From: Mobula hypostoma
Taxonomy: Eukaryota
Assembly: GCF_963921235.1 (NCBI RefSeq)
Contig: NC_086108.1
Coordinates: 48,672,001 to 48,736,000, forward strand
Direction: 5' to 3'
Length of the DNA stretch: 64,000 nucleotides
Positions 1,839 through 31,900 of this stretch are shown one piece after another. The translations under genes were made by a program, and so were the position numbers. Position 1 is the stretch's first letter. The number at the start of each line of letters is the position of its first letter. The notes beneath the pieces are model-generated. The model was not told where the DNA came from and made no database searches. It saw only the letters and a program-made list of their open reading frames with translations.

Positions 1839-1926
1839 ATGGCTAATCCTCAAAATCTCATCACATGGCGAACAATCCTTTTAACAGTATCATCGCTTAG
1901 CTTGCTAAAAGTGATCGAAACTCAAG
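1839..1926 (+). CDS. PRG4: PRG4 first coding exon, signal peptide [29 protein letters not shown](D)
   Basis: Polypyrimidine tract and cag acceptor at 1821-1823, ATG at 1839, phase-1 donor G|gtaagt; resembles human MAWKTL...SSQD. Confidence 0.85.
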
Positions 1927-7900: not shown

Positions 7901-10900
7901 CAGTGGACTCAGCTCCATCTACTTGCTTTTTCCCCATAACACTTAATTCTCCTGCTATGCAAAAATCTATCTAACAGTGTTCTAAGTATACCTAGTGAGG
8001 TCCCCTCTAATACCACATTGAGCAAAGAATTCCACAGATTCACTACTCTGGGAAAAGCAATTTCTCCTCAACTCAATCCTAAATTCATTGTCCAGAATTT
8101 TGAGGCTATAGCCCCTGGTTCTTGTCTCACTCACCAGTGGAAACAACTTTCCTGCCTCTACTTTATCTATCCATTTCATAATTTAATGTTTCTATAAGAT
8201 CCCCTCTCTCTCTCTTCTGAATTCGAGTGAGTATAGTCCCAGGCAACTCAATCTCTCCTCACAGGCTAACCTCCTCATCTTGGAAATCAGCCTGGTGAAC
8301 CTCCTCTGCACTGCCTCCACAGCCAGGATATCTTTCAAATAAAGAAATCAGAAGTGCACACAGCACTCCAGCTACAACCTCACCAGTACCCTACAGAGTT
8401 GCAGCATAATCTCCCTGTTCTCAATTTCAACCTCTCTAGCAATGAAGGCCGACATTCCATTTGCCTTCTTGATAACTTGTTATATCTGCAAACCAACCGT
8501 TTGCCATTCGTGCACAAGCACTCAAAATTTCCTCTGTACATGAGCATACTGCAATCTTTCACCATTTAAATAATAATCTGATCTCCTAAAATGACCAAAA
8601 CTCATTCTCGCACTACGTATTCCGTGAGTTTACTTCATATCCCATGACATCTTAGTCCCCCACCCTATCCACCCGCCCCAGCTTCGCCGTCACTCATCCC
8701 CCACCCACCTCCACTTCCCTTGAGACAGATGCAAAACACACCCTCTTTCAATCGTTTCTCTCCTCCCATTCCCCGCAATCTTTTTTCTTACATTTCACTT
8801 GAAGCATTTTACTTCTAAAAAACCGAATATTCGAAATGCATTACACGAGAAATGATGCCATTTTGCTGAATGTTCTGTCCCACCATTCGCGACTAAAGTG
8901 TCTAAAGTGCAGCCCCTCACCACCACACCCCCCATGTGAAAAGTACTTTTTTCTGGTTTCCAACGAGACGCAGGTGCCGCAGTCAGCTTCCTCCAAAAAC
9001 TCAGCCTCAGCACGAAGAAGCCCTGATGTTCTTAGTTTACACCGTGATCCTCGTAATCAGAGCGCCACTCTCCACCGGCAACACCCTTCTCGGAGCCTCA
9101 GTAATGCCCCCTGCCTGCCCCACCACCCGCTGGAAGCCCCGCTTTCTCTCCGTTCTTTCACTTGGGCAGTTGAGATGATACCTTAAGCCCCGCTGTTGTG
9201 AAACATAAAACATTTCGTCACCTCAAGAACTACCAACACAAAGCACAGAAAATGGGAAAAGCCGATTTTCAGTAGCCGCACATTCTCGAGCGAAATTCTC
9301 GAGCTCTTTATCAAAATAGCTATATCCAGAAAATGACTTAAAATCGGTGTAGAAATAGGTATAGGCAATTTCCGATTGATCTCGTAGAGTGCGTCTCGGT
9401 AAATTGGATCAATATTTGAAAGTCTTATTCATATCTGTTCAATTTGTTTTTATTTTTGTAAAATGAAGACAGTTGTAGCGGCAGATGTGCTTCCGGGTAC
9501 GACCGAAGCAGCAAGTGTAACTGTGACGGTGAATGTATTCGTTATGGTGAATGCTGCGAAGATTACAGGATCCTCTGCACGTCAGGTAACCAGCAGCCAC
9601 CGCGATCTCTTGGCAGTGTCATATAAACCAAGGGTGTAAGAGTGGCCTCATTTGTTCCTCTTTAATAGCTATGGATTTTTGTTAAGTACAGTCTTAATCA
9701 TATCGTTATTTCATGATCCTGATGAATAAAATGAATTGCTCAACCCTAAATTTTCTGGAGAATGCGGTAACCCATGTTGATGATCAACCAACCCCCAAGA
9801 GGCTTGGGCACATTTGTGTATCTCAACCATTTGGTTATTCATTATGCATATTGTTAGCAAGGTAGGAAAGTTTCACTAGTAAGTTTAATTGTGTCCATGC
9901 CCGAGGTAAAAGTTCAATAGTTGTGTTCATCCTAAACTTCCAGTACTATTCCAGCAGAGATGTAACGAAGATGTCTGACTCAGAACTATATCACTCTCAC
10001 CAGTCTACTGAAAGTAACCTTGTATTTCTACGCTCCTTTTACATTGCATTGTGTACCAAATCTGTTCTGACTCTGGACAGAAACCTCCTGTTCTGGACGC
10101 TGCTTTGAGCAACATGAGCGTGGACGGAAATGTCAGTGTGATCCTTCCTGCATGAACTACGGGGACTGCTGCTCTGATTTTGTTGCAAATTGTGGAAAAG
10201 GTAGGTTAAGGTCTCCTGGTGTGAAAATGAAGCTACAGATCTTTTGCTTTTCCCATTTTTCTGTGCTTTGTTTGTGTTGGTAGTTCTGGTAGTGCAGGAA
10301 CCTCAGTGTTGGATGAGCAAATGTTCCATGAGGAGCTTTATTCAGTAAGCAGCACAGAATAGTTTCAAAAATGTTGCTTAAACATGTTCAGATAAGTTAT
10401 TTGTCTTCAATTACTGGCAAATCTTTAAAAATTCAGTAAATTTCATTCACTCTACTGTAATTTTGAAGACAGATTAAGAAATCATTTCCCATTACAGCAA
10501 TATTTCTGAATTCCTGAATATGAATTCAAAAATATTGCTCCTGGTTGAATGGATTTATAGACTTGCTTTCAAAATAAAATTTTTAAAGATCAATTTCACC
10601 ATTTCTCTGTTCCTCATCTCTGACTAATGTTGCAACTTGCAATGAATGAACAGCATACGAAATAGGATGTGTATCATTGTTTTGGTTGAAGTTGCTTTTG
10701 CCCATGTGGAATATGATCATGACTATCTCTCTTGAACCTCTTCAAATACGCTGGCACTGATCTCTATCTAGACTCCTCACCAAGTTCCTGTATCTATTCT
10801 TCCCACCTTCATGCTTCGACAGAAAGCCATTCCTTTCCTCGGCTCCAATCAGTTTCCCTGCTAACAGCGATTCCTGTCCTTGATCCAACCTTGGTCTGGG

Positions 10901-13900
10901 TCACAGGTGCCACTAAATTCTGCTGGAGAAAACCCATGAACAAATTATTTCTTGGCATGCCTTCCAAGAACCTCTTAGCACAATTTAAAAGCCGAAGATC
11001 AATTTCTCGGCCACACTGTTTCCCTTTATTGTATTGCTGGCATAAGCTCTACCTTGATTATGAAAAGATGAAATTAAAACAATAAAATTTGTCATGGATC
11101 ATGACCTGTTATTACATATAATCACAGATATCTGGAAAAATCCTGCATTCGTGGCAACAACAAGAGCAAGTTTAGTGTTCACCAGCTCCACAAGACAGCC
11201 AACAGCAGAGAAACCAGAGTTTATCAATGATACATTGCTCCAACAAGATGCTGCCAACTTTTTGAATGATAACACAAAAATCAAAGAAGAATCCATGAAG
11301 CTAAGTATGGGGAAGCATTTATAACAAAATGAATGATTTTGTTTGCAGATTCTGGACTTTAACATATAATTGATTTATTTGATGGAGGTGCTTCATAATT
11401 AAAATGCATAATATTTTACAGTGTGCACAGGTTGCTTAACTTATAGGACAGGATGATCATTTTACAGAGGGCTAAGGATTGAGCAAAATTTCTCAAGATA
11501 CTTATCAAAACAAATCAGAGCTAATTCTAGGAAGGAGAGCGGATAGAGAAATAATTGGTAATGGTATCTTAACTAAAGGTCTGGAAATGGGTAAGGGGAC
11601 ACAGAAATAATAAGACCATAAGACAGTGGAACAGATTAGGCAATTCGGCCTTACAAGTATGCTCCGTAATTCCATCATGGCCGATTTTTCATCCCTCTCA
11701 ACCCCATTTCCCTGCCTTCTCCCTGTAACTTCTGATGCTCTGATTAATCAAGAACCAATCAACTTCTGCTTTAAATATGCCCAGTGACGTGGCCTCCACT
11801 GACATCTATAGCACTGGATTCCACAAATTCACTACCATCTGGCTAAATAAATTTCTTCTCATCTCTGTTCTAAATAGCATCCCTCTGGTCCTAGACGATC
11901 TCATTATAGGGAATATCCTCTCCACATGCACTCTATCTACGTCTTTCAATATCCAATAGATTTCATTGAGATTCCACTCTTTCTTCTAAACTCCAGCAAG
12001 TATAGACAGACCCAGACCCATCAAACACTCCTCATATGATAACCCTTCAAATCTTGGAATCATTCTTAAGAACTCTAGATCCTCTCCAATGTCAACACAT
12101 TTTTTCTAAAATAAGGGGCTCAAAACTGCTCATAATACTCTATGTACAGTCTGCCAAATGCCTTATAAAGTCTCACCATTATATCCTTGACTTTATATTC
12201 TAGTCCTATCAAAATGAATGTTTACATTGCAGTTGCCTTCCTTACCACTGAATCAGCCTGCAGATTGACTTTTAGGGAATTCTGCACTAGGAGGTGCACT
12301 GCTTATTTTTGAATTTTCTTCCCATTTAGAAAATAGTCCTTATTTCTTCAACCAAAGTGTATGACCACACTTCCCTACACAATATTCCATCTGCCACTTC
12401 TTTGACAATTCTTGCAATCTTTCCAAGTCCTTCTGTGGATTCCCAGCTTCCTCAACACTAGCTGCCCCTCCACCCATCTTTGTATTATCCGCAAACTTGG
12501 CCACAAAGCCATCAATTCCATTGTCCAAATCATGTGAAAAGAAGCAGTTCCACACACCAGCCTCTGAGGATCACCAGTTCTCACCAGCAGCCAACCAGAA
12601 AAGGCCTACTTTATTTCCACTCTTTGCCTCCTGCCTGTCATCCAATCGTCAATCCATGCTAGTATCTTCCTGTAATACTATGGGTTCTTAACTTATTAAG
12701 CAGCTTCATATGTGGCACCTTGGCAAAGGCTTTCTGAAAATCCAAGCAAACAACATCCATTGACTCTTCTTTGTCTATCCTGCCTGTTATTTCCTCAAAG
12801 AATTCCAACAGATTTGTCAGGCAAGATTTCCCTTGAAGGAAACCATCCTCACTTTGGCCCATTTTATCATGTGCTTCTGAGTACCCTGAAACCTCATCCT
12901 TAATAATGGACTCCAACATCTTCCCAACCACTGACGTCAGGCTAACTGGCCTATAATTTCCATTCTTTTCTGCCTCTTCCCTTTCTTAGAGTGAAATAAC
13001 ACTTGTAATTTTCCAGTTGTCTGGGATCATTCCAGAATCTAGTTTTCATTGAAAAATCATTACTAATGCCTCCACAATCTCTTCAGCTACTTCTTTCAGA
13101 ACCCAGGGGTGCAGACATCTGAACCAGGTGACTTATCTACTTTCAGACCTTTTAACTTCCCAAGCACCTTCTCCTCAGTAATAACAGCTACACTCACTTC
13201 TGCCCCCTGACACTCTTGAATTTCTAGAACATTGCTACAGTAAACTAGAACAGTGAAGACTGATGCAAAATACTTAAGTTTGTCCACCATTTCTTTGTCT
13301 ATCTTTACTACCTCTCCAGCATCATTTTCCAGCACTCCAATATCCACTCATGCTTCTTTTTTCACTTTTTATATGATCTGCAAAAAACTTTTGCTATCCT
13401 CTTTTATATTATTGGCTATATTGCCTTCATATTTCATCCTTTCTCTCCTTGCAGGTTTTAGTTGTCTTCTGTTGGTTTTTAAAAGCTTCCTAATCCTCAG
13501 AATTCCCATTTTTTTTTTTGCTATACTTTATGCCCTCTCATTTGCTTTTATTGTGTCTTTCTTATCCCTTGTTCGCCACAATTGTGTTATCCCTCCCTTT
13601 CAAATACTTCTTCATCTTTAGGATGTATCTATCCTGTGCCTTTTGAACTTCTCACAGAAATTCCGGCCACTGCTGCTCTGCCTTCATTCCTGCTAGTGTC
13701 CCTTTCTAAGCAACCGTAGCCAGATCCTCTCTCATGCCTCTGTAATACCCTTTACTCCACTGTAATAATGATACATCTGATTTCAGTTTCTGCTTCTCAA
13801 GCTGCAGGGTGAAATCTATCATATTATGATCACTGTCTCCTGAGGATTTTTTTATCTTATGCTCCCTAATCAAATCTGCTTCATCACAAAACACCAGATC

Positions 13901-16900
13901 CAGAATTGCCTTTCCCCTAGTGGGCTCAACCACAAGCTTCTCTTTTGGTTCCAGCACCAGCCTGATTTTGCCAGTCTACCTGCGTATTGAAAGCCCCCCT
14001 GACTATCATAACATTGCCCCTTTTTAAATGCCTTTTCTATCTCCCATTGTAATCTGTGTTCCACATCCTGACTACTGATTGGAGGCCTGTATATAACTCC
14101 TATCAGGTTTTCTACCCTTGCAATTTCTTAACTGCACCCACAAGGATTCTACATCTTCCAATCTAATGTCACCTCTTTCTAACGATTTGATTTTATTTTT
14201 TTACCAGCCTCTCTGCCCAACTACCTGTCCTTTCAATACATTGTGTATCCTGGGTTGTTAAGCCCCAAACTATGATCTTCTTTCAGCCATGACTCAGTGA
14301 TGCCCACAACATCATACCTGTCAATATCTAACTGCGCTACAAGATCATCTACCTCATTTCATATACTACTGGCATTCAATTATAACACCTTCAGTCCTAC
14401 ATTCATCACCCTTTTCAATTTTGCTCCCACATTACACTGCACCTCATTCCATCACTGCAGTTTTGCCCGAACATCAGCCAGTCCTTCCTCACAGTTTCAC
14501 TACACACTGCATCTACTTGTATACCAACTGCCCCATCCTCAGCCCCATCACTCCTGTTCCCATTCCTCTGCCAAATTAATTTAAACCCTCCCCAACAGCT
14601 CTAGTAAACCTGCCTGCAAAGCTATTCGTTCCTCTCAGGTTCAGGTGTAATCTAGCCTTTTTAAACAGATCATTTCTTCCCCAGAAGAAATCCCAATAAT
14701 CTAAAAAAAACCTGAAACCCTGCCCCCTGCACCAATTCTTCAGCCACACATTCATCTGCCAAATCAACCTATTCTTATTTTTATTTATTTTTATTTTATT
14801 GAGGTGCAGTTCAGAGTAGGCCTTCTGAACCTTTGAGCTACTCGATTCAGCAATCCCCCAATTTAATCCTGGCCTACTCACGGGACAATTTACAATGACC
14901 AATTAACCAATCAACCGGAACCTCTTTGCACTGTGGGAGGAAGGCGGAGCACCAGAAGGAAACCCATGCAGTTATGGGGAGAACATACAAACTCCTTACA
15001 GGCCCTGGCGCGAATTGAACTTGGGTCACCTGTACTGTACAGCACTGTGCTAGCCACTGCACTACCATGCCACCCCACTGCCGTGTGGCACAGGCAGCAA
15101 TCCGGAGATTACTACCCTGAAGATCCTGCTTTTCACCTTTCTACCCAACTCCCTATATTCTTTCTTCATGACCTCCTCCCATTTCCTACCTATATCGTTG
15201 GTACCAATATGTACCATGACTTCGGGCTGCTCACACACCCCCTTCAGCATGCTGAGACATCCCTGACGTTGGCACCTGGGATGCAATATCTTATCTGGTG
15301 TCTCTTTCATGTCTACAGAATCTCTTGTCCATTCTTCTAACTACGGAATCATCACTACTGTACCCCTATTTTCCCCCTTCCCTTCCCTTCCGAGCCACAG
15401 AACCAGATTCAGTGCCAGAGACCTTGTCCCTGTGAATTCCCCAACAGTGGATATATGTAGTATTAAGGGAAAAACCCACAGGGCTACTTTGCCTATTCCC
15501 TTTCCCTCTCCTGACAGCAACCCAGGTACCTGCCTCCTGCAACGTAGGTATGACTTTTATCATAGTTGAAAGAAACTTGTATGAGGAAGGACAACTTTGG
15601 TAGACAGATTAGAAGTGGAACCCCTTGATCCGGAAATCTTAATGGAGAGGACAAACAAATCTCTGACCTGGTCCGCTGGTAATATTAGGGACATAAAACA
15701 CATGGATCTCACTTAATGAAGAAATCCATTTGTGGTAGAGGCATAGGAAATCCAGCCACAAAGGTAGGCACTCCTGAGGCACCGCAATGCATCCGTGGAG
15801 AATAAGATCCGCTGAAATATCAAATGAATATTTTGAATAGCCAGAAGACAGTATGTCACAACAATCTTCTAGGAACATTAGCAAAAGACAATCTTAGCTA
15901 AACATGGGATTACAGATCCCCTTAGTGGTTTGTCCTTTAAGGTAATGGGTGAATAATTAGGGACAGAAGGAAATATTAAGATAGGTTGTACAAGCTTGGA
16001 ATTTTCTTTTTGGAGCAAAGGAGGATGAGAGGTAACTTGACAGAGCCATAGATAGAGTGGAAAGCCAGAGGCTTTTTCTCCCCCCCCATCCCAAGACAGA
16101 AACGGCTAATACGAGAAGGCATAATGTTAAGGTGATTGGAGGAAAGTACAGGGGGATGTCAGAGTTAAGTTCTTTACACAGAGTAGAGGGTGTGTGAAAT
16201 GGCCTGCCAAGGATGGAGGAAGAAGCAAATACATTAGGGGCAATTAAGAAACTCTTAGGTAGGAACATGGATGACAAGAAAAATGGAGGTTTATTTAGGA
16301 GGGAAGGGTTAGATTGATCTTAGAGTAGGTTAAAAGATCAGCCCAACATTATGGGCGGAAGCTCCTGTACTGTTCTATGTTCTAACCATCGGAAGAAGAC
16401 AGGACAAAATCATTTCTAAGATTTTTGTCCACAAGCAACGTAAAACAATGTTTCCATTGTAAAGTAATTTATTGATAGCCGAGTAGGAGTATGCCCCAAG
16501 CAAATAAAGATGACTTGTTAGTGAATCATCATTTTTTTCTGATTTATCATGATTTATTTTTACAGAAAATGGAAGTGCTAAAGTAAGTGAAGGATCGACC
16601 ATCATCAATCCCAACAGACTTGAACTTGGAAAACAAGATTCTAAAATCTCGGATCAAGAAATGACAACAACTAGTTCTTCTACAGATACATCTAGAGAAT
16701 CTGAAACCTTGGATAATGGAATGACAACTCCATCTGTTTCAAAAGATGGAACCTTCAATTCTAAAATTTTGGCGAAAGTCATGACAACATCTGTTACTCC
16801 TGAAGATGGGACCATGGATTCTAAAACCTTTGAAAATAGAATGACAACGCATTATGTTCCTGAAGATAGGTCTACAACCCCCAAAACCCTGAATGAAGGA

Positions 16901-19900
16901 AAAAAAACAACCACTGCCGTTACCACAAATTCAAAAATTCTGTATAAAGAAATGACAACAGTTATTCCTAAAGATGCTAGCTCAGATTCTATGCCTTTGC
17001 ATAAAGCAATGACCACACCCTCTATGGAAGTTACCACCACAGAATCTACAATCTCAGATGCACACGCAACAATTCATTCTGCCTCAGAACAGACTTCCTC
17101 AGTTCCTGATAAACTGGATAGAGGAACAATAACATTTCCCATTCCTGAAGACAATTCTAACACCCTAGATGAAGAATTAGTGACTGTTCCTGAAAGCGAT
17201 GCCCTCAATTCAAAAATTCCAAACAATGGGATAAAAGCGCCCTTGGTTAGTGAAAATATTTCCAAGAGTTCTGAAGCTCAAGATAATAAAACGATAACAC
17301 CTACTCTTTCTGCAGATTATTCTACAAATTCTAAAATCCTGCATAAAGGAATGACAACATCCCCTATCCCAGAAGATGTGCCCACAGATTCGAAAATTTT
17401 AGAGAAGGGATTGACAACGAACACTGACCCTGAAGAGGTCACTGGTCCTGGAGTTCTGGAGAATGTAAAAACAACTTCTGTTCTTCCTGAAGCTGCTTCT
17501 ACAAATGCTGGAATCTCAGGCAAGGTAATGACATCGCTCTCTGTTCCGGTAGGTGCCACTATAGCATCTAAAATGTTACACAAAATAATAACATCTTCCC
17601 CATTTCCTCAGGCTAGTACCAGTGATTCTAAAATCTTGGATGATATAGTGATGACACCCTCAGTTCCTGAAGATAGGACCGTAGATGTGAAAGGTTTAGA
17701 TGAAGGTCTGTCAACACACTTTGCTAATAAAGGTAGTTTCACAGATTCTAAAATATTGGATAGAAGGCTGACCACACCTTCTGTTCTTGAAGGTGGGAAT
17801 AAGTATTCTAAAACCTTGGCTAGCAAAGTGACAACCTATAGTGCTTCTGAAGGTGAGTTCAGGAATTATAACTTTCTGGACACTGCAATGCCAAAGAACA
17901 CTTCCCCAGTAGAGACTTCCATGGGTTCTAATATATTGGATAATAGAATGTCAACCTCCCATGTTCCTGTGGATGCCTCTACAAATGCAAGAATGTTGTA
18001 TGATGGAGTGACTTCATTCCCTACTAAGATAGGTGAGGCCACTTATTCTGAAATCCCACATCAAATATTTACAACTTCCCCTTTCCCCAAAGATGGAGTC
18101 ACATATTCCAAAATCTTGGATCACAAATTGTCAACACAATTTTATGAAGACACCTCATTCAATTTAAAACAATTGGATACTGAAATGACAACTAGTTCTG
18201 AAAATGGGATCATGGGGTCTGAAGTATCTTATAAAGGGATGCCAACTTCTCCTATCCCAGGAAAGGTGACAACAGATTCTAGAATGCTGCATAAAGTAAT
18301 GCCATGGTCCAAGGTTCCTGATTATGAGAGATCAAATTCTATAACAGTTCCTCAAGATGGGATTGTTGACTTTAAAAACATGGATACAGGAATGACATTG
18401 CACACTGTCCCAGAAATATCTTCTTCAGATCCTAGTAAACCAAGCAAGGGAATGATAACAAGCTCCATTCCCAAAGTTGTGACCAGTGAATCTATAACCC
18501 TAGATAAGGGAATAACACCCACTGTTCCTGCGAGAGATTCCATGGATTCAAAAATCCTGAACAATGAAATAACAATGCTTTCAATTACTGAAGATGCTTC
18601 CATGAGTTATAAAACCTTGGATAACAAAATGAAGACTCCCTCCATTCCCACTGATGCTTCAACGATGTCTAAAATTCTAGGTAAAGAAGGGACAACAGCT
18701 TTTATCCCACAGGATAATTCCACAAAATATAAAATCTTAGAAAAAGGCATGAAAACAGACACTGTTCCTGAAGAGATGTCCATAGATCCTAATATACCCA
18801 AGAGTGGAATTACAACTCTCTCTGTCCCTTTATCCAACACTGGATTCTTGGAAAATGGAACAACAATGCTCCCAACTCCAACAGATGAGACCATAAATTC
18901 AAAGCCACCGTTAAAAGTAATGACACCATCCCCTTTTCCTGAAGATGGTTCCACAAAATCTAATATCTCATTTGAAGGGATGACAACACCACCTATTCCT
19001 AAAGATGGGGTCATGGAAAAAGGAATAACAACTCCCCTTTTTCCTGTAGATGGGATAACAGATTCTAAAGTTTTGGTTAAAAAATTGGAAATACTCAATA
19101 TTTCGGCAGATACATCCACAGTTTCAAAAATATTGGATGTGCCCTCTCTTCCTGAAGAAGGCACCAAGGATTCTACAATTTTAGATAACGTATTGACAAC
19201 ATCAGCTTTTCTTGAAGGTGGGACCAGGGATTCTATGAACTCAAATAAAAGCACATCAACATATAGCGTTCCTGAAGACAGCTTCACATATCCTAAAACC
19301 ACGAATAAGGGAATAAAAGCCTCTCGTCCTGGAATGGCTTCCACAGATTCAAAAGTCTTGAACAAAGGGATAACAACCTCACATGCTCCAGAAGATGATA
19401 TCCCAGAATCTATATCTTTGGATAAAGTGATAACAACTGTCTCTACTGCAGAAGTTGATTCCCGAGAAACAAGACCATCAAATACACAAATAACATATAC
19501 TGCACTAAAAGAGACTACAGCAGCTCCTAGTATATTGGATAAAGAAATGACAATGTTTCCTGCTCCTGAAGACATGGCCAATGATAATAAAATCTTGGAA
19601 AAAACAACAACCATTATTTCTCAAAATAATTCCATGGATTTAAAAATCCTGAAAAATAGAACAAATATACAGTCAGTTACTGACAGTCTTTCCATTAGTT
19701 TGAACAAAATTACAACTCCCTCTCTTCCAGCAGATTATTCCAAAGATTCTAAAATTGTCAATAACAGAATGACAACTCCTTTTGTTCTTCCGGTGACAAC
19801 CATGGATTCAAAAATGTTGATGAAAATACTTGCAATATCTGCTGTTACTGATGATAGAATGGCAGACTCTAAAACCACCAACATCATGGTCAGCACATCA

Positions 19901-22900
19901 GCTATTCCTGAAAATGGAACCAATGATTCTAAAACAGTATTGACAACATTATCTGTTCCTGAGAATGGGACAATGGTTACTAAAGTATTCAGTGAAGGAT
20001 TAACAACACCCTTTGCTAATGAAGGTAGTTCCACAGATTCTAAACTCTTGGAAACAGGATTGACTAAAACTTCCGTTCTTCAAGATGGGAAGATGCATTC
20101 TAAAATCTTGGATAACATAATTAAAAAATCCAATATTTTTGAAAGTGGGTTCACAGATCCTAAAATCTTGGCTGAAGGAATGAAAACGACCATAGTTCCT
20201 GAAAATTATTCCATGGATTCAGAAATCACAAGCAATGGGGCGAAAATGTCCTTGATTACTAGAAGTATTTCCACAAGTTCCAACATAACATCAACAGGCA
20301 CTACTCTTGAAGATGGCACCACTGATTCTATGTTTTCGGATAAAGGATTGCCAACAGTTTCAAACACTGATGTTGTTCCTACAGAACCTAAAACTTCAAA
20401 CACAGGAATAGCAACATATATTGACCCAGATGAAGCATCCTCAGTTCCAAGTATATTTAACAAAGACATGACAACATCCACTGTTCCTGAAGAAAGGATC
20501 AATAATTCTAAAATCCTGGAGAACAAGACAGCAGCCAATATTCCTGAAAATGAATCTATTTATTCAAATACCCAAAACCATAGGCTGACAACGCCCCCAG
20601 TTGCTGAGGACATCTACACAAGTTCTAAAATTTTGTATGATAAAATGGTAAATTCCTCTATTCCAGTTGATGTGACTACAGAATCTAATATTTTGGATGA
20701 AGTAATGACAACAACCTTTATCCCTCAAGTTACTTCCAGGGAAGCAAATCTCTTGGAGGCAGAAATGACAACACAGACTATCCTTAAACAGGCTTCTAGC
20801 ACATTAGTTATTGGAAGAATAACTCCTTCTGTTCCTGTACTTGCTTCTACAAATTCAAAAACCTTGGATAACAGAACCATCACATCCTCAGTTCCAGAAA
20901 GTAAAAAGACAAATTTGAAAGCATTTCATCAAATAGTGACACAGTCCTTGTTTCCCAAAAACACAAATATGCAAAATAGTACAACATTACCTACTAATAT
21001 GACAGATGCTTCCACAAAAGCAGAAACCTTGGCTAATGCGAAGACTGCTCTGCCAGTTGCTGATGGTGAGACCATGCTTTCTAAAACGTTAGATAAAGGA
21101 CTAACAACCACAGCATCACTTATTTCTCAAGGTAAGATAACACATTCTAAAATATTGAATAAAATAACATCAACTGACACAATTCCTGAAATGGACACCA
21201 CGGATTATTCATCCTTGGATAAAAGAATGACTGCAGCCTTTACCACAGAGGTTGCCTCGATAGAACCCACACTCTCAGACAGGCAAGTTACAACACCCAC
21301 TGTCCCAGAGGAAGCTTCCCCAGTTCCTACTACATTGGATAAACGAATGACAGCATTCCCTGTTCCTGAACATCAGAACAATCTTTCCAAATTACCAGAT
21401 AAAGTGGTAACAACAGTTGCTCCTGCAGACAGTTCTGTAGATACAAAGCTCCGGAAGAACTGGCATACAGTGCCCTCTATTACTGAGGGCATTTCCACAG
21501 GTTTTAAAATCTTGGACAAAGAGATGACAGATTCCTCTCTCCCTGTAGATGTGACCACAGATTCTACAACCTTGGGTAAAACAATGACAATGGCCTTTTT
21601 CAGAGAAGATGCTAAAATGGAATCTAAAATCTCTGTGACAAGATTGACAACACACAACATCTTTGATAAGGCTTCAGAAAGTTCTATTACACTGATTAGT
21701 GGAATGACAGATCCTTCTATTTTGACAAAATCTTCTACAGATTCTCAAATCTTGGATAATAGAAACATCACATCCTCTGTTCCAGAAGGTGAAGCCACAG
21801 GTGCTAAAACCTCTCATCCAATAATGACATCATATCCCAAAGATGCAAATACAGCATCCACATTCTCGACTAAGAAAATAACAGCTCCCACTGATCCTGA
21901 AGATGAGTTCCTGAAATCTAAAATCTTGGATAAAGAAATAACAACTTCTCTTCCCAATAATGGGACCATGAATAAAGGAGTAACCAAAATTTCTTTTACT
22001 GACGATATCACAGGTTATAATACCTTGAGTAAAATATTGTCAACCGCTATTAATGCTAGAAATGCTTCTAATGATTCCAAAATCTTGGATAGTGTATTGA
22101 CAACTCCTTCTGTTTTGGATAATGGGACCATGGATTCTAGAATCTTGGACAGAAAATTAATAACCACTGTTCCTGAAAATGATTCAGAAGTAATGGCTAA
22201 AACAATAGCAGTGTCACCTGTTCTTCAAGACACAATAACGTCTTCTAAAATCCCATATAAAATAATATCAGAAGTAACTGTTCCTGAAAATGGTACCATG
22301 GATTCTGTATTCGTGGGTAATGAAATAACTAAAGCTTTTATGACTGAAGGTGCTTTCATTCAACTTAAAATGTTGGACAGAGAAAATGCAACACAGATCC
22401 TCCCGGAAGAAATCTCGTTAAAACTTAGTAAATTAAAAAAAGGAATTGACAATCTGTCCAGCCCTGAAGATAGCACTAGTAGTTCTAAAATTAAATATAA
22501 ATTAGCAACAACGGAAGATGATTCCATTGATTCAGAAATCCAGAACAAAGGCATGACAGTGCCTTCGGTTAGTGAAGGTGTTTCTATGAGTTCTCAAATC
22601 TCAGGTAGCAAAATGTCAATTTCCTCTGTTCCTGCAGATGGGAACACTGATTTTAAAATCTTGGATACAACAGTGGCCACAGTCTTCATCACAGAGGATA
22701 TTTCTACAGAACCAAAAATCTTGGTTCATGCAATGACAGATTCTTCTGTTGCGGAAGATGGAACCATGGATTCTAAAATCTTGGATAAAGGAATAACAAC
22801 AACTGTTCCCACCAATAATTCCACTGATCGGAAAACCTTGGATGAAGGAGTTACCACACTACCTGTATCTCTAGGTAGCATAACAGATTCTAAAATCCAA

Positions 22901-25900
22901 AATGAAATAACATCAACAAACTCTGATGTCTTGGCTAATAAACTGGCAACTTCCACTGTTGATGGGGATGTTTCCACAGATTCTGAGGTCTTGGATAATG
23001 AAAAGACAGTTCCATCTGTTCCTGATGATGCAACCATGGATTCTAAAACCACAGATGAAAGAATAACAACCATAGTTCTTCAAGAAAATTCCACTCATAC
23101 AAAAATCCTGAACAACCAACCAACAGTTCCCTCGGTTCATAAAGATGCTTCTGCAGATTCTATGGTCTTGGATAAAGGAAAAGCACCAACCATTGCTCCT
23201 GTGCATGAATCCACAGATCCTAAAATCATGCATGCTGGATTAACAGACTTTGCAGTTCCTGACAAGCTGAGAATAGATTCAATGTCTGGTATGCCCCAAG
23301 ATGGGACTATAGATTCTCAAATCATGGATAAAAGAAAAGTAGCATCCTTAACTAAAATATATAGTTCCATGAGTTATGAAATCCTGGCTAAAGAAATGAC
23401 AACAACTGCTGGAACTTCCACAGATTCCAGACCTTTGAATAAAGGAACATCAATGCATCCTGAATTAGAATATAGGAACACAGAATCTAAAATCTTGGGC
23501 AAAGGAATGACAGCATCTTCCATTAACAAACGTAGTTCCACAGATCCTAAAGCCTCAAATAAAGGAGCTACAGCACCCTCTATTCCTATTGCTTTTTCAA
23601 AGACTAAATTCTTAGACAAAGGAAGTGCAGAGCATTCCGTCACTGGGTATAGAACCATGGAGTCTAAAGTGGTAAACAAAGGAGGAGGCATAATTCCAGA
23701 AGATGACCCTAAAATCTCCAAGCTCTTGCATAATGAAAGAGTAACAAGCCCCACTTCAGAAAAAAGTATTCTTCATCTTAACAGCTTCCATACTGCAGAA
23801 CAAATACAGCCTACAATTCCTCAGGAAACTAGTTCCATCGGTTCAAACTTAAACAAAGGGAGAGTATCACAATCCATTGTACCTTCACATCCTGTAACAT
23901 CAGATCCAGTATTGAAAACCGTGGAGATGGCATGGGTCAATGTCTTACAGAATCCTGTAACAATGGAACCTGTTAACTTAAATATAGAAATAAAGATCAG
24001 TAAAGAAGAATTAGTTGCTACAAATTCAAAGTTAAAAAGAGAAAATATAAAGCCCAAAGTTCCTGTTGAACACAAGGTAACAGATTTTAACATAAATTAA
24101 AACAAAACCATGCAGATTATCAATTCCCAGAATTCACAGTAAATAGTTTTTCTATTTTAAATATCAAAAAATTCGATAATGCAGAACCATTGCTTCAGCA
24201 ATTATATGCTTGCTAATAGAAATAGTTATTTAAAAAGAAACTTAATTGTCCACCTTGAAGGTTGAATTCAGCTCTATCTCCAACTGCAATTCCACAAGAA
24301 AATAATTTTAAAATTGAAGTCTCCTGCTTCCAGCACAAATCTGCAAAGGAAAGAGTTTTGTGCTGGTTATTTCTCAAGTACTCAAGAGAGAAGCTGTTAC
24401 TCGAATCAGAAATAATTTGGTCAGTGCTTTAGGCTCTCAGTAGAAGCCAACACTCCCTTCCCCTCCATCTCCAGGGAGAACCCCTTAACAATTAATGACA
24501 CTGCAAGTTCTGGATGCAGAAAAACAGCAGTGAGAGGACTGTGTCAGCTTGGTGCTTTTGACAGGAGAAATTTACAGTATTTCTTCCACCCCAGTTATTT
24601 CTGACAAAGATTTTTTTTGGTGGAAGCACAATGCCTTTCTTTGAAAGTGTGCACTACATTCATCAGCAGCTCTTTTAGAAGTAGGTTCATCTGATTTGCA
24701 TAATACAGATTTTAAAAGGTTCAAGTAGGTTTGAGATATTACAGTGTCATAATTATGCCTAATTGAAAAGCATCATAATGGTCTAATCAATTGTCAGTGG
24801 CATAATTGTAGCATTGTCCTGCAAAAGATTTCAGCCCAGGTAAAGGTCATCCATTTCAGAAAATAAAAGTCAAATAAGCTATTCATTGGAGAAAAAAAAA
24901 CACTTAACTGTTATTTTTCATAGGTCCCTAATCCTACTAGGGGTGATAACATGGTAACTGAACCAACTCATGAAGGGACAAATCGGATAATTGGAAAACC
25001 CCAATCATATGAAGGTAGGACATTCAATTTATTTGCTGTTGATTATAATTCATGTTGAGGGTATCCATGTAGGAACTCAGAACAGAAGAAAACATTAAGC
25101 AAAGGGCTCCAAATATGCATAAGTAAATGAGCAGTAAAAAAGTGTTTGAAGGAAAGAGGTGCAGTGGCAGTTAATGATTGTTGCACATTCAGAAAGGAAG
25201 CTCCTGTAACCTATTGTCTACAGATATGTAACCCCTATATCTTGGTTTCAAATTGATCCATGACAAGTTATGAAACTGAATTCAGTAATGAAAATCAGAT
25301 TTATTATCATTTCCATAAGGCATGAAATTTGTTGTTTTGTGATAGCAGTACAGTGCAAGGATGTAAAGATGTATAACTTACAAATAAAATAAATACTACA
25401 AAAAATAATGTAGGATAACACCAGAGAAGAAGCAAATATGTTGGAATACTTCTGTAGGGACATAGTCACTTCAGTAATGTGGTATAACAGAACATGGAGG
25501 CCCTGGTGAAGAAGAAGAAAGTGGCACATATCAGGTACAAGCAGTTAGGGTCAAGTGAGTGACTCGATGAGTATAAGATGTGCAAGGGAACACTTCAGAG
25601 AGAAATCAGGTGTGCTAAAAGAAGGCATGAGGTTTCTCTGCAGACAAGGTAAGCAAGAATATTAAAAGATTCTAGCACTATATTAAGAGCAAAAGGATAG
25701 CAAGGGACAAAAATGATCCTCGAAGATCATCATTGTCGTCATCTATGCATGGAGCCAAAGAAGATGAGGGAAGATCTGTATTTACTCTGTGGACAGCCAC
25801 AGAGACTGTAGAATTGAGGCAAATGTGTAGTAAGGTCATGAACCAGATCTGGATTACAGGAGAGGTGGTGCTGGCTTTCTTGCGGCAAATTAGGGTGAAT

Positions 25901-28900
25901 AAACCCCTAGGGTCTGACAAGGTGTCTACTTGGGCCTTGTAGGTGGCTAGTGCAGAAATTGCAGCGGTCCTGGCAGAAACATTTAAAACATTCTTTACCA
26001 TGGGTGAAGTGCTGGAGGACTGGAGGATAACTAATGCTGTTCTGTTGTTTTAAAAAGGCTTTAAGAATAAGCCAACAAATTATAGGCAGTGTGAGTCTTA
26101 CATTAGTCATGGAAAAATTATTAGAAGGTGGTCTAAGGGACAGGCATCTGTTAGTCTTGCGAGACCATGGATCTGCACCTGGAAAGTCTTCACTCTCCAG
26201 TGCACAGGCCTGGGCAAGGTTGTATGGAAGTCCAGCAGTTGCCCATGCTGCAAGTCTCCCCTCTCCACACCATCGATGTTGTCCAAGAGAAGGGCATTAG
26301 GACCCATACAGCTTGGCACCAGTGTCGTCGCAGAGCAATGTGTGATTAAGTGCCTTGCTCAAGGACACAACACGTTCCATCAACTGGGGCTCGAACTCAC
26401 GACCTTCAGGTCGCTAGTCCATTGCCTTAACCACTTGGACATGTGCCCACACAAGGGACAGGGTATGTAAATATTTGGATAGATAGGGCCTGATCAGGGA
26501 TAGCCAACATGGCTTTATGCTTGGTAGGTTGTGTCTAACCAAACATATGCCGTATTTATTTGAGGAAGTTACCAAGAAAAGGCAGTGAATGTTATTTATA
26601 CAGGTTTTAGCAAGGTCTTTGACAAAGGCAGACTGGTTAAAACATTAACTTGCTTGATATTCAGGATGAAGTCCTCAGTTAGATTCAACATTTGTTTCAT
26701 GGGCAAAGACGGAGTGGTAGTAGGTAGCTGTCTCTCTGACTCTAGGCCTGTGACTAGTGGTGTGCCTTAGGTTCATTATAGTTTATCATCTATATTAATG
26801 ATTTAGATGATAATGGGGTAAGATCAGTAAATTTGCAGATGACACCATGGTGGGGGATATTGTGGATATTGAGGAAAGCTATCAAATTTTGCAGCATGAT
26901 CTTGGACCTTCTGGGAAAATGGACTGAAAAATGGCCATTGAAATTTAATGCAGACAAGTGTAAGGTGTTGCACTTTGGGAGGACAAGCCTGGAAAGACTA
27001 ACACAGTGAATGGTAAGGTTTTGAGGTATGCAGTAGAATGAATGGAAACACATAATTCCTTGAAAATGGCATCATAGGTAGATGAGGTTGTAAAGAGAGC
27101 TTTTGGCATATTGGCTTTCATAAATCAGGGCACTGAGTACAGGATATGGGATGTTCTGTTAGTTATATAAGATATTACTGAGGCCAAATTTGGAATACTG
27201 TGTGCATTTCTAGTCATATATCCACAGGAAGTATATCAATAAGCTTGAAACAGTGCAGAGAAAATTTACAAGGATGCTGTTGGGACTTGAGGACCTGAGT
27301 TATATGGAAAGGTTAGGATTTTATTCTCTGGGGTACAGGAGAATGAGATCTTAAAAATGTATACAAAATTATGTGGGGTATCGTTAAGGTGAATGTATGT
27401 AGACTTTTTCCTCTGAGGTTGGGTGAGATCTAGAGGTCGTAGTTTTAGGGTGAAAGTTGACATACTTAAGTGGAATCTAGAGAGGAACTCCGCTCAGAAG
27501 ATGGTCTGCGTGTAGAACGAGCTGTCCGCGGAAATGGTAGATGGGAGTACAATTGCAACATTTAAGAGAATTGTGGATAGATGCATGGATGGGAGGGATA
27601 TGGTCCAGTGGCAGGTAGATGGGACTAGGCAGAAGATTAGGTTGGTATGGTCTAGATGGCTGAAGAACTGTAGTACTCTGACTTGAATAATGCTTTAACA
27701 CTGCATCTCTATGGCACATGATGTTGAATATCACAAGTGGTAAGTTGTCAATGAATCATATAACTAAGCATGAAATGAAAGTTTCAACAAATGTTAACAA
27801 TTATGAGATGTGGATGATTTCTTGATTTTAAAATCAAATTATTATTAAAATTATCATTTAGACATCCTTAATGATCCCAATTTGTGTAATAAGAAGCCTT
27901 CAGATGCTATGACAACTCTACAAAATGGAACCACATATATTTTTAGAGGTAAGATGTTAAAGAAACTTTGTAAATATATTTTAAAAAATCTAAATGCGAA
28001 TCTGAATACTTTTTTCTGATGTTTGGCTCCACCTCTGGGAGAGTGTCAGTGCCTCAACTCTGGACAAATCTCAGAAGTTACACATGATTAAAAATGGATG
28101 GACTGATCACAAGCTGATTTAACAGAGAGGAATGTTTTATGTCTTAGGTTTGGCTCATTTTTTTTAATCCAAAGGGAGTGAATGCCAATCAGAATGGGCG
28201 GGTCTGCTGAAGTGGAAATGTTACAGCTCACAAGCTGCCCAAATGAAGCTAATACATTGACCAGGAAGATTGGGAGAGGATGTTGAATGTTTTCCAGTAG
28301 AATATAGGATTAAGTAAATTGGAATTTAAATCCATCTGTCTTTGCCAATAATATAATGGCATTAAATGCTCAGTGCTGATCATATCATTGATTATTTGCC
28401 TAGCAATCATTAAGAAGTAGCAGAATCAGGTTTATTATCACTGGCATATGTCCAGTAATGTGTTGCTTTATGACAGAACAGTCAATACATTACAAATTAC
28501 AATATGTTACAACAGGAAATATAAAAAATAAGTAGCGCAAAAAGAAAGCAAAAAGTGAGATAGTGATCATGGTCTGTTCAGAATCTGATGGTGAGAGGGA
28601 AGAAGCTGTTCCTAAAATGGAGAGTGTGGGTCTTCAGGTTCGTCCCTGATGGTAGCAATGAGAAGTGGGCATGACCTGGATGGCAAGGGTTCTTAATTTA
28701 AGATATTCGTAAACACCAGTTATCCTTTCCATTTGACAAAGCTGAATTGTGGCTTAATTTTATGTTTTCAGGCCATTTATTTTGGACAATAAACCAGAAA
28801 GGACAATTATTAGACCATCCACATAGGATCAGTGATGTGTGGGGCATTCCATCCCCAATAGACACCGTCTTCACAAGGTGCAACTGCCTTGGAAATACAT

Positions 28901-31900
28901 ACTTTTTTAAGGTAAGTTTCTTTGTCCTATTCCTTGTCCAATGAGGAGATCAAAATAACAATGGTGTTTGTAATTGCTGTAAAGCAGAATGGCTGCTGAT
29001 TTAACATTTTCCCATGTCTTTTCTCAAGAAACCAACCTAACATTCCCTCTCACAGCTTTCATTCTAAAGATGCAGAACACAAAAAGTAACATAGGATCTT
29101 TGAAATACAAGATCAATTTGTCCCACACATCGTCATATCCCTCTGGCCCGGCAATTTATTTATCTAGGTTGATTCTGAAGTTTGTGTAGATTCTGCTGCA
29201 CCACACTTCCAGGCTGTTCAGTCCAGATAATATTACGAAAGGTTTCTGGCCTACTGCTTTCATTTCATCTATGCAATCAATTACAAGGTTGTTGCTTACA
29301 AGAACTGCAAAAATCTGAATTGCAAAGCAACCATACTGATGCAAAAAGCATCACAAGATCATGCAAACATGGGTCTCCAATTGCACCTCTAAATTAAGAC
29401 TACATCAGAAAGGTGCTGGAAATTACACACCTACATTTGCAATCTATTATCCATAATCTCTGCACTCACCATTGAGGCTAGACAAAAAAAACCAAGATAG
29501 TATGTATGAATGATTGGCATCCTGTCACACTCACCTCAATCATAAGCAAATGCTTGGAGAGGCTGGTCAAGGACTACGTCTACAGCATGCTACCACCCAC
29601 ACTGGACCCCCTACAATTCACCTACCGACATAACCGATGAACAAATGATAACATAATTACAGCACTACACACCATCCTCACTCACCTGGAAAAGTGGGAT
29701 GCTTATGTTAGAATGCTATTCTTGGACTACAGTTCAGCATTTGACAAGAAGCTCAGACACCTGGGCCTGCACCCTGCCTTGTACAGCTAGCTGGATCTTG
29801 GGCTTCCTGTCGAATCGCCGGCTGGTGGTAAGGATGAGCACCCTCACCTCTGCCCCTCTGACCCTCAACACAGGAAACCCCCAGAGCTATGTCCTGAGCC
29901 CCCTCCTCTACTCCCTCTACACCCATGACTGTGTTGTTGTGCACAGCTCCAATCCGCTGATCAAATTTGCACTTGACACGACATTGATAGGCCTAATTTC
30001 CAACGATGAATTGAATTGAATTAACTTTATTTCTTACATCCTTTACATACACGAGTAAAAATCCTTACGTTATGTCTCTATCTAAATGTGCAATGTGCAA
30101 TCATAGTAATTTATAATAAATAAAACAGTCAATGTAATATAGAGTACACTCAAATCAGCGCGAGTCCATCAGTCTGATGGCCTGGTGGAAGCTGTCCCGG
30201 AGCCTGTTGGTCCTGGTGTTTATGCTGCGGTACCACTTCCTGGATGGTAGCAGCTGGAATAGATTGTGATTGGGATGGCTTGGGTCCCCAGTGATCTCAT
30301 GGGCCCTTTTTACACACCTGTCCTTGTAAATGTTCTGAATAATGGTAAGTTTACAACTACAGATGCGCTGGACTGTCCGCACCACTCTCTGCAGAGTCCT
30401 GCGACAAAGGGAGTCACAGTTCCTCTGCCAGGCAGTGATGCGGCCAGTCAGGATGCTCTCAATTGTGCCCCTGTAGAAAGTTCTTAGGACGTGGGGAGAG
30501 TTCTTAAGATTTGGCCTACAGAGAAGTCAATGCCAACACAGTGGAAAACAACCTCTCTCTCAATGTCGAAAAAGCAAAGGAGCTAATTGTGAATTACAGG
30601 AGGAATGGAGACAGGCTAGGCCCTATTGACATCAATGGGACTGTATTTGAGAGGGTGAGTATTTTCAAATTTCTTGGTATACACATCACTGGGGATCTCA
30701 CCTGAACCGTACGTACCAGCTGTGTGGTGAAAAAAGCACAACAGCACCTCTTTCACCTCAAGGTGGCTGAAGAAGTTTCACATGAATCCCCAAACCCTCA
30801 GGACTTTCTTCAGGGGCACCATCACCAAGAGCATCCTGACTGTGTCACTGCCTGGTCTGGGAATTGTACTACCCTCAATCACAAGGCACTCCAGAGAGTG
30901 GTGTGGACAGCCCAGCACATCTGTAGATGTGAACTTTCTTCTATTCAGGACATTTACAGCAGCAGATGTGTAAAAAGGGCCCAGAGGATCAACAGGGACT
31001 ACAGCCACCCCAACCACAATCTGTTTCAGCTGCTTCCCTCTGGTAAATGGTACCATAGCATTAAGGCCAGGACCAACAGGCTCCAGGACAGCTTCTTTCA
31101 CCAGGCCAGATTGATCAGTACACATTGATCTGATTGCATATCTGACTGTACATACATGTATACAGAACACAATCAGTTTTTGGGCAATATCCTACATTTT
31201 CCTTCCTTACTGCTTGTACATAGCAATGGAGACGTAAAATAAAAGATTTTTACTCCCTTGTTGCAAGAAAAAAATGAAAAAAATTTTAAATCTAATTCTA
31301 ATACACAAGCTACCATTAAGAGAGGTGGTGAAAGAGTACAGGTAAAATGCAGAGAGCCTATTCTCCAAGAATGCTAACACAAAACAATGAACACAACAGC
31401 TGATAATGACAATAAATTTGTATTGGACATGCCCACAATTAAAGTCAAAAAGGCAACTGCCATAACCAGAGGTACTTTGAGTTCAATTCGCTATGTGTTT
31501 AATTGGCCATTGGCTCAGCTTTCAGCTGGTGGTGGGGGGATCTTGTAGCACCTCTAGCAAAGAGTTGTGCATTGCAAAAACTATTAGGAAATTGAGAGCA
31601 GAATTGTACTTGGAAATACTACTTGGTAAGTGACTCCTTGTACTCAAATTCAGGTACTGTAAAAACTGAGCAGTGTGGATAACAATGAATTCCATTTATT
31701 GAACTTCCTGCAAATTTATCCAATCTGCAGCAGAATGAGTTTAAAAAGAACCAAATGGAATGTGTTATCAATGCGACGGCTGTTTAATTTGAATTCCCAC
31801 CTACTTAAGTGTGTCAGTTTATTAATTGCGTTTCAATAGAAACTTCTCTTAAAGCATCGATTCTTGTTGAATTTATAGGGAGACCAGTACTGGCGATTTC

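What the first reader, a model, noticed from the sequence alone, without database searches (positions are those of the whole stretch)
16566..24076. Giant lubricin mucin exon built from a 20-aa repeat unrelated to mammalian KEPAPTT
Seen: one uninterrupted 7,511-nt exon made almost entirely of degenerate 60-bp units (about [20 protein letters not shown], on the order of 120 units by length). Established: mammalian PRG4 is about 1,400 aa with KEPAPTT-type repeats. Inference: this lineage independently built a much longer lubricating domain with different chemistry (alternating T/S/P, acidic and K-I-L segments, Met-rich). The ORF stays open despite very divergent units, which implies selection. 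It may be relevant to joint or skin-mucus lubrication in cartilaginous fish.
Basis: partly seen in the sequence, partly recalled or inferred. Interest (0 to 1): 0.75.

Follow-up and report, generated by a model that had tools for sequence, protein, structure and literature searches.

The report
Ray lubricin with splice-switched length
This devil ray's joint-lubricant gene (lubricin, PRG4) holds an unbroken 7.5-kb coding stretch of over 100 degenerate 20-residue repeats shared with other sharks and rays; spliced contigs cut it at an internal site (short protein) and, in a close relative, also at its far end (predicted four times longer), so one splice choice likely sets the length of the lubricating domain.

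Summary
16566-24076 is a stop-free 2,503-codon exon of PRG4 with 101 detectable 20-aa units (consensus [20 protein letters not shown], 25% pairwise identity) and no KEPAPTT. The interpretation needs three corrections. (1) The exon is not constitutive. In 4 of 4 RNA-like runs it is spliced at an internal in-frame donor (17524), giving 764 aa with 12 units, identical to a Mobula hypostoma RefSeq isoform. The 2,948-aa join (24076 to 24924) appears only in two runs of a close relative, at much lower contig depth and with 28 letters on its short side. (2) The repeat is shared with sharks, a skate and other rays, and the exon's last 128 aa match the shark exon end, so the long form is probably ancestral. 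Annotated skate, electric-ray and stingray proteins stop at the equivalent internal donor. (3) The size is not unique: bamboo shark 3,222 aa, tree frog 3,670 aa. Residues drift almost neutrally (dN/dS about 0.9) while the frame is kept. Best reading: an old batoid splice switch between a short and a giant lubricin. This scan noted long ray PRG4 exons before on other genomes, without RNA. Tissue, protein and lubrication are untested.

The parts
1839..1926 (+). PRG4 signal-peptide exon (RefSeq models start 6 codons further upstream)
   Evidence: loose end at 9466 in X1 reads this exon
9469..9585 (+). Somatomedin B domain 1 exon
   Evidence: Pfam PF01033 E 2.6e-11; joint to 10081 in 4 of 4 runs
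10081..10200 (+). Somatomedin B domain 2 exon
   Evidence: PF01033 E 1.6e-12; joints in 4 of 4 runs
11128..11304 (+). linker exon, spliced to 16566
   Evidence: joint 11304 to 16566 GT..AG in 4 of 4 runs
16566..17524 (+). short form of the mucin-like exon: 959 nt, 319 codons, 12 units; donor AAG|GTAATG
   Evidence: joint to 24924 in X1-X4; joined isoform identical to RefSeq XP_062920100.1 after its 6 extra N-terminal residues
17525..17548 (+). 8-codon extension to a second internal donor CCG|GTAGGT; the equivalent position ends the exon in annotated skate, electric-ray and stingray PRG4
   Evidence: joined isoform identical to XP_062920099.1; junction context; this joint was not among those listed or 25
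17525..24076 (+). optional distal part: 6,552 nt, 2,184 codons, 89 units, 577 Ser/Thr; exon in the long isoform, intron in the short one
23693..24076 (+). non-repeat tail of the long exon, homologous to the end of the shark mucin exon
   Evidence: 44% identity over 117 aa to Heptranchias PRG4, E 5e-23 pairwise; also Carcharodon, Scyliorhinus, Chiloscyllium at the matching place
24077..24923 (+). 847-nt intron of the long isoform
   Evidence: joint skipping 847, GT..AG, in X2 and X3; read through unspliced in X1
24924..25014 (+). common acceptor exon for all three donors (phase 0)
27862..36605 (+). six exons of the hemopexin-like C-terminus (27862-27948, 28772-28911, 31879-32035, 32565-32711, 34211-34336, 36520-36605)
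   Evidence: joints 25014 to 27862 (3 of 4 runs) and 27948 to 28772 (4 of 4 runs); identity to RefSeq

Best explanation
This is the ray PRG4/lubricin gene, whose central repeat exon has an internal and a distal in-frame 5' splice site, so it likely makes both a common short protein (764-772 aa, 12 repeats) and a rarer giant one (2,948 aa, 101+ repeats) that would differ only in the length of a predicted disordered, O-glycosylated Ser/Thr-rich spacer between the SMB and hemopexin ends. Shown: gene structure, three in-frame donors, short joint in four runs, long joint in two runs of a close relative, repeat shared with sharks, tail homology to shark exon ends. Inferred: the long exon is the ancestral elasmobranch state; the internal donor arose in or before the common ancestor of skates and rays; exon definition favours the nearer donor; selection keeps frame, composition and length rather than individual residues; the long form gives a thicker hydrated surface layer, probably in a tissue poorly represented in these runs, such as joint lining. 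Untested: translation, glycosylation, tissue, lubrication.
For: Short joint 17524 to 24924 in X1-X4 (contig depth 2392, 305, 295, 17) and RefSeq isoforms identical to the joined short forms. Long joint 24076 to 24924 GT..AG in X2 (30.5) and X3 (11.1); in X2 the distal exon has depth 19-30 and the following intron 0-6. No joint of either kind in the DNA-like run X8. Frame kept: 0 stops in 2,184 distal codons where 3.6 are expected on the window's branch since organism C (P about 0.03). X8 indels in the ORF are +9, +9, +3, +12, -3, plus one +3 inferred from a gap count, against -4, -2, -4, +2, +6 in the intron. Tail homology to four sharks. Rhinoraja, Narcine, Hypanus and Hemitrygon models end at the 17548-equivalent position, and Narcine carries about 100 aa homologous to the stretch just past it. 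No fold predicted for six units (pLDDT 48).
Against: The long joint has only 28 letters on its short side, under the tool's 31-letter guide, and comes from one study of another species. In X1, which matches the window, the distal contig runs unspliced through the intron, and X4 shows no long joint. No contig carries the long exon from end to end: X2 lacks cover at about 17523-17823. Contig depth is a poor measure of expression, and the RNA label of these runs is a guess (X3 flagged probably DNA). Distal dN/dS is about 0.9 (19 non-synonymous, 8 synonymous) and divergence from X8 (4.6%) is close to the intron-rich piece (4.9%). Pro is 6% and Thr 14%, against 34% and 27% in a seal repeat stretch, so the brush may be sparse. 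No long Mobula protein came back.
Confidence: 0.7

Rival explanations
1. The distal 6.5 kb is a relic that has become intron; the long joint is leaky use of an old donor and makes no useful protein.
For: dN/dS about 0.9 and intron-like divergence; no long joint in X1 or X4; other batoid RefSeq models returned are all short.
Against: The internal donor position is shared by a skate, an electric ray and stingrays, so the distal part has probably been optional for a very long time, yet it has no stop in 2,184 codons; all distal indels seen in X8 are in frame; the short exon, which is certainly used, has the same dN/dS (0.87; 9 and 4).
Confidence: 0.12
2. Both isoforms are made, but the long domain is not mainly a boundary lubricant; it works as a hydrated spacer or matrix filler, and the short form does the signalling or plasma job.
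For: Low Pro, 25% ILVMF, net charge -72, unlike KEPAPTTP; mouse Prg4-S without the mucin domain has a non-lubricating role (10.1101/2025.09.15.676417); zebrafish prg4b is also expressed in liver (PMC4951194).
Against: 672 Ser/Thr between the usual lubricin end domains; skates have cavitated synovial-type joints (PMC11856278, abstract start); zebrafish prg4 mutants develop joint erosion.
Confidence: 0.13
3. One reading: the 7.5-kb exon is the constitutive exon and the giant protein is this lineage's lubricin.
For: Continuous ORF with valid splice sites and phases; long joint exists.
Against: Internal donor used in 4 of 4 runs with far higher contig depth; RefSeq short isoforms; repeat shared with sharks.
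Confidence: 0.05

Closest known systems
Mammalian PRG4 / lubricin
   Same: Signal peptide, two SMB domains, one large Ser/Thr-rich exon, hemopexin-like end with an R-x-R-R site.
   Different: 20-aa acidic, Pro-poor, partly hydrophobic unit instead of KEPAPTTP (about 31% Pro, PMC13067954 passages); repeat exon 319 or 2,503 aa against a human mucin domain of aa 232-1085 (PMC11925169 passages); human isoforms are described as all retaining the mucin domain (10.1101/2025.09.15.676417 passages).
Mouse Prg4-S / Prg4-L (10.1101/2025.09.15.676417)
   Same: Splicing decides how much mucin domain PRG4 carries.
   Different: Mouse skips whole exons and loses nearly all of it; the ray uses donors inside one exon and keeps 12 units.
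Ankyrin-G 270/480 kDa giant exon (PMC5422562 passages)
   Same: A 7.8-kb exon with in-frame internal splicing gives a medium and a giant isoform: the closest splicing analogue.
   Different: Unrelated intracellular neuronal protein.
Annotated elasmobranch 'proteoglycan 4b' models (RefSeq/GenBank)
   Same: Same repeat family (20 aa in batoids, 21 aa in sharks); Mobula hypostoma X2 and X3 equal the two short forms.
   Different: Batoid models returned (523-855 aa) stop at the internal donor; shark models (1,054-3,222 aa) mostly run to the tail. No long ray model was returned; Mobula isoform X1 was not seen.
Frog PRG4 isoform series (Leptodactylus, Rana, Hyla, Xenopus)
   Same: Very long PRG4 (to 3,670 aa) and many annotated length variants.
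   Different: Different repeats (periods 26-133); no match to the ray or shark profiles.

Membership tests
PRG4 / lubricin | Two N-terminal somatomedin B domains after a signal peptide | tested here: met
   PF01033 twice; signal peptide judged by eye from the hydrophobic first exon
PRG4 / lubricin | C-terminal hemopexin-like domain | tested here: met
   PF00045; best relatives are named proteoglycan 4
PRG4 / lubricin | Central Ser/Thr-rich repeat region encoded by one large exon and spliced to both ends | tested here: met
   S+T 27%, no Cys; joints on both sides, firmly for the short form, weakly for the long
PRG4 / lubricin | Tail-to-tail neighbour TPR | tested here: inconclusive
   Minus-strand coiled-coil and acidic exons downstream recognised as TPR from memory; searches did not name it
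PRG4 / lubricin | Dense O-glycosylation and boundary lubrication | not testable with these tools
   Only composition was measured
Mammalian KEPAPTT-type mucin domain | KEPAPTT(P) repeats, about 30% Pro | tested here: not met
   0 matches, Pro 6%
Elasmobranch 20/21-aa PRG4 repeat | Cross-match of ray and shark unit profiles | tested here: met
   Ray HMM 93-240 bits on five sharks, shark HMM 144 bits on the distal part; best other PRG4-like protein 4.8 and 6.6 bits
Folded solenoid repeat | Confident regular fold of consecutive units | tested here: inconclusive
   pLDDT 48, pTM 0.14 with an 11-row alignment of the window's own units; shallow, so weak

The most novel reading that the evidence does not exclude
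Skates and rays evolved a regulated donor switch inside the lubricin repeat exon that makes an eight-fold longer, non-KEPAPTT brush in loaded joints (or skin mucus) and a short form elsewhere, and have kept both since their common ancestor: a natural test of how brush length and chemistry set boundary lubrication.
Probability: 0.35. Interest if true: 0.68.

Novelty: new variant of a known kind. Interest (0 to 1): 0.5.

Why it matters
Cartilaginous fishes were recently shown to have synovial-type joints (PMC11856278), but the passages of that paper that mention lubricin give no shark or ray PRG4 data. This locus supplies the candidate lubricant, with a repeat chemistry unlike the KEPAPTTP motif on which current explanations and engineered lubricins rest (PMC11092771 passages). 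Two natural forms with the same end domains and 12 versus 101+ units would let length and chemistry be tested separately. It also means that annotation of ray PRG4 from the common short mRNA can hide about three quarters of the coding capacity.

Tried and rejected
TRF found no array in the exon: units are too divergent. A Pfam Peptidase_S7 hit in the exon (E 0.032, below cut-off) is taken as chance. N-glycosylation sequons are not enriched (36 against 33.6 +/- 4.9 in 1,000 shuffles). Ser-Gly sites are under expectation (6 against 13.5), so a GAG-rich domain is unlikely. No higher-order block duplication at E 1e-20 by self-BLAST. A 10-aa sub-unit is weak (10.7% half-to-half identity). No run was on record as RNA; the RNA reading rests on GT..AG joints. 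No cover at about 17523-17823 in X2 and patchy distal cover in X3 and X4 are not used as evidence. A perfect-consensus out-of-frame donor at 17852 was not among the joints listed. A processed retrocopy as source of the joints was considered; X8 shows none. The downstream gene could not be named by tools. Chimaera: the ray profile fails (2.8 bits); the shark profile gives domains of 12.4 and 11.6 bits against 5.6 in shuffles, with period 21, so a chondrichthyan-wide origin is only a lead. Paper searches listed no paper describing shark or ray PRG4 repeats or this splice choice; two searches listed only 25 of 1,205 and 15 of 585 matches, most subscription journals are not held, and no supplements were read.
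Full report
Observation. The window holds one ORF of 2,515 codons at 16553-24100. Within it, 16566-24076 is bounded by a good acceptor and the donor AAG|GTAACA; it has 2,503 whole codons, no stop and no Cys. Periodicity is 20 aa and 60 nt. An iterated weight matrix finds 101 units (20 shuffles per threshold: mean 0.05-0.55, max 2), consensus [20 protein letters not shown], 43% mean identity to consensus and 25% pairwise. Composition: Thr 14%, Ser 13%, Pro 6%, Met 3.8%, net charge -72; no KEPAPTT-like word.

Gene. Twelve exons with compatible phases join to 2,948 aa without an internal stop: signal peptide, two SMB domains, linker, repeat exon, and hemopexin block. The nearest named proteins are 'proteoglycan 4b' of rays and sharks. 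Joining with donors 17524 and 17548 reproduces Mobula hypostoma isoforms X3 and X2 exactly, apart from six extra N-terminal residues. Isoform X1 was not returned by any search, so I do not know whether the long form is annotated.

Splicing. Eight runs hold the stretch, none on record as RNA; five were laid. X1-X4 carry GT..AG joints between the SMB exons, the linker and 16566. All four join 17524 to 24924 in frame (contig depth 2392, 305, 295, 17; short side 26-28 letters in X1-X3, 93 in X4). That removes 6,552 nt of the ORF and leaves 319 codons and 12 units. The join 24076 to 24924 appears in X2 (30.5) and X3 (11.1), both organism B of one study, about 1.4% diverged; its short side is 28 letters, below the tool's 31-letter guide, though that is the length expected where two paths meet in a 31-mer graph (my inference). 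In X2 the distal exon has depth 19-30 and the next intron 0-6, but no contig covers about 17523-17823. In X1, identical to the window over this stretch, a 7,456-letter contig at depth 30.8 runs unspliced through the 847-nt intron. The ratios (1.3%, 9.1%, 3.6%) are contig figures and only a rough hint. The DNA-like run X8 shows no joints.

Selection. Organism C (X8) differs by 4.6% in the distal part and 4.9% in an intron-rich piece. Its ORF indels are +9, +9, +3 (short part) and +12, -3 (distal), plus one +3 inferred from a gap count; intron indels are -4, -2, -4 (clustered, perhaps one event), +2 and +6. About 3.6 stops would be expected in the distal part on the window's branch alone; there are none (P about 0.03). 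I could not check X8 for stops: 364 of 404 difference rows were not shown. The 40 rows shown, all differences between the window and organism B, give 19 non-synonymous and 8 synonymous changes distally and 9 and 4 in the short part, none a stop; dN/dS about 0.9 in both (the distal set is all 24 differences of one X2 contig and 3 of 65 of the next). So residues drift almost freely while the frame is held, as expected for a disordered spacer selected for length and composition. AlphaFold gave no fold for six units (pLDDT 48; shallow alignment).

Relatives. Of 109 PRG4-like proteins picked by a hemopexin motif, 14 have three or more units and all are sharks or batoids; the other 95 have at most two. 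Profiles built from ray and from shark units cross-match (93-240 and 144 bits) and give at most 4.8 and 6.6 bits on the rest, which include gar, bowfin, bichir, teleosts, coelacanth, amphibians, reptiles and a seal. Sharks have period 21, batoids 20. A partial chimaera protein matches the shark profile weakly. The last 128 aa of the long exon align with the end of the repeat exon of Heptranchias (44% over 117 aa, E 5e-23) and at the matching place in Carcharodon, Scyliorhinus and Chiloscyllium; for the last two the score does not exceed that of repeat-window controls. Rhinoraja (719 aa), Narcine (855), Hypanus (779) and Hemitrygon (785) models end the exon at the position of donor 17548. The simplest history is a long ancestral exon plus an internal donor gained early in batoids (inference from gene models; no genome other than the window was read). 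Length is not unique: Chiloscyllium 3,222 aa, Xenopus 2,500-3,500, Hyla 3,578-3,670.

Mechanism. All three donors match 7 of 9 consensus positions and are in frame with exon 24924. The nearer ones likely win by exon definition (recalled principle); read-through to 24076 would give 672 instead of 95 Ser/Thr in this exon. By analogy with lubricin, whose O-glycosylated mucin domain forms a hydrated brush (PMC11092771, PMC11925169, passages), the long form would make a thicker layer. Pro 6% and Thr 14% against 34% and 27% in a seal repeat stretch warn that it may be a sparser brush.

What is known. Human repeats are KEPAPTTP (PMC13067954, passages). Mouse Prg4-S drops the mucin domain by exon skipping, and human isoforms keep it (10.1101/2025.09.15.676417, first quarter of the text and passages). 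Ankyrin-G uses an internal in-frame splice in a 7.8-kb exon (PMC5422562, passages). Zebrafish prg4b marks and protects joints and is also in liver; the word 'repeat' does not occur in that paper (PMC4951194, passages). The skate joint paper mentions lubricin only as background (PMC11856278, passages); PMC7217701 has Prg4 only in a reference. Eight searches listed no description of the elasmobranch repeat or this splice choice, within the limits given under Tried and rejected. Earlier notes of this scan report long open exons with short annotations in other rays, without RNA; they are unchecked and are not counted as support.

Verdict. A real feature of a true PRG4 orthologue. The giant exon is optional, the repeat is elasmobranch-wide, and the notable point is a probably old batoid splice choice between a 764-aa and a 2,948-aa lubricin. 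New variant of a known kind; interest 0.5.

Noticed in passing
window 17316: An internal acceptor (pyrimidine tract + CAG, phase 1). The Hypanus X2 model (523 aa) appears to start the repeat exon at the equivalent place, so acceptor choice may shorten it further.
   Followed up: partly
window 24077-24100: The frame runs seven codons past the distal donor, and these align with the last residues of the shark exon; the ray's distal donor may have moved upstream.
   Followed up: partly
window 17852: A 9-of-9 consensus donor (AAG|GTGAGT), out of frame, lies inside the distal part and was not among the joints listed; many E-G codon pairs create such phase-1 donors.
   Followed up: partly
P0012 (Rhincodon) against P0013 (Chiloscyllium): The whale shark model (1,382 aa) lacks the conserved exon tail and ends mid-repeat, which may be an independent internal donor in a shark.
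   Followed up: no
P0007 (Narcine): Contains a duplicated donor-bearing segment, so it includes about 100 aa homologous to the window's distal part; it also lacks the linker exon.
   Followed up: partly
P0047, P0183-P0190 (Leptodactylus fuscus): Nine annotated PRG4 isoforms, several differing by 29 aa steps (1124, 1153, 1182, 1211): mucin-length splicing may be common in frogs.
   Followed up: no
window 38655-59638, minus strand: Multi-exon coiled-coil and acidic gene tail to tail with PRG4, recognised from memory as TPR; tools did not name it.
   Followed up: partly
window about 5250-8500, 11600-15550, 25400-27700, 29400-31250: Decayed LINE-like retrotransposon pieces in the introns (reverse-transcriptase-like fragments; very high contig depth).
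   Followed up: no
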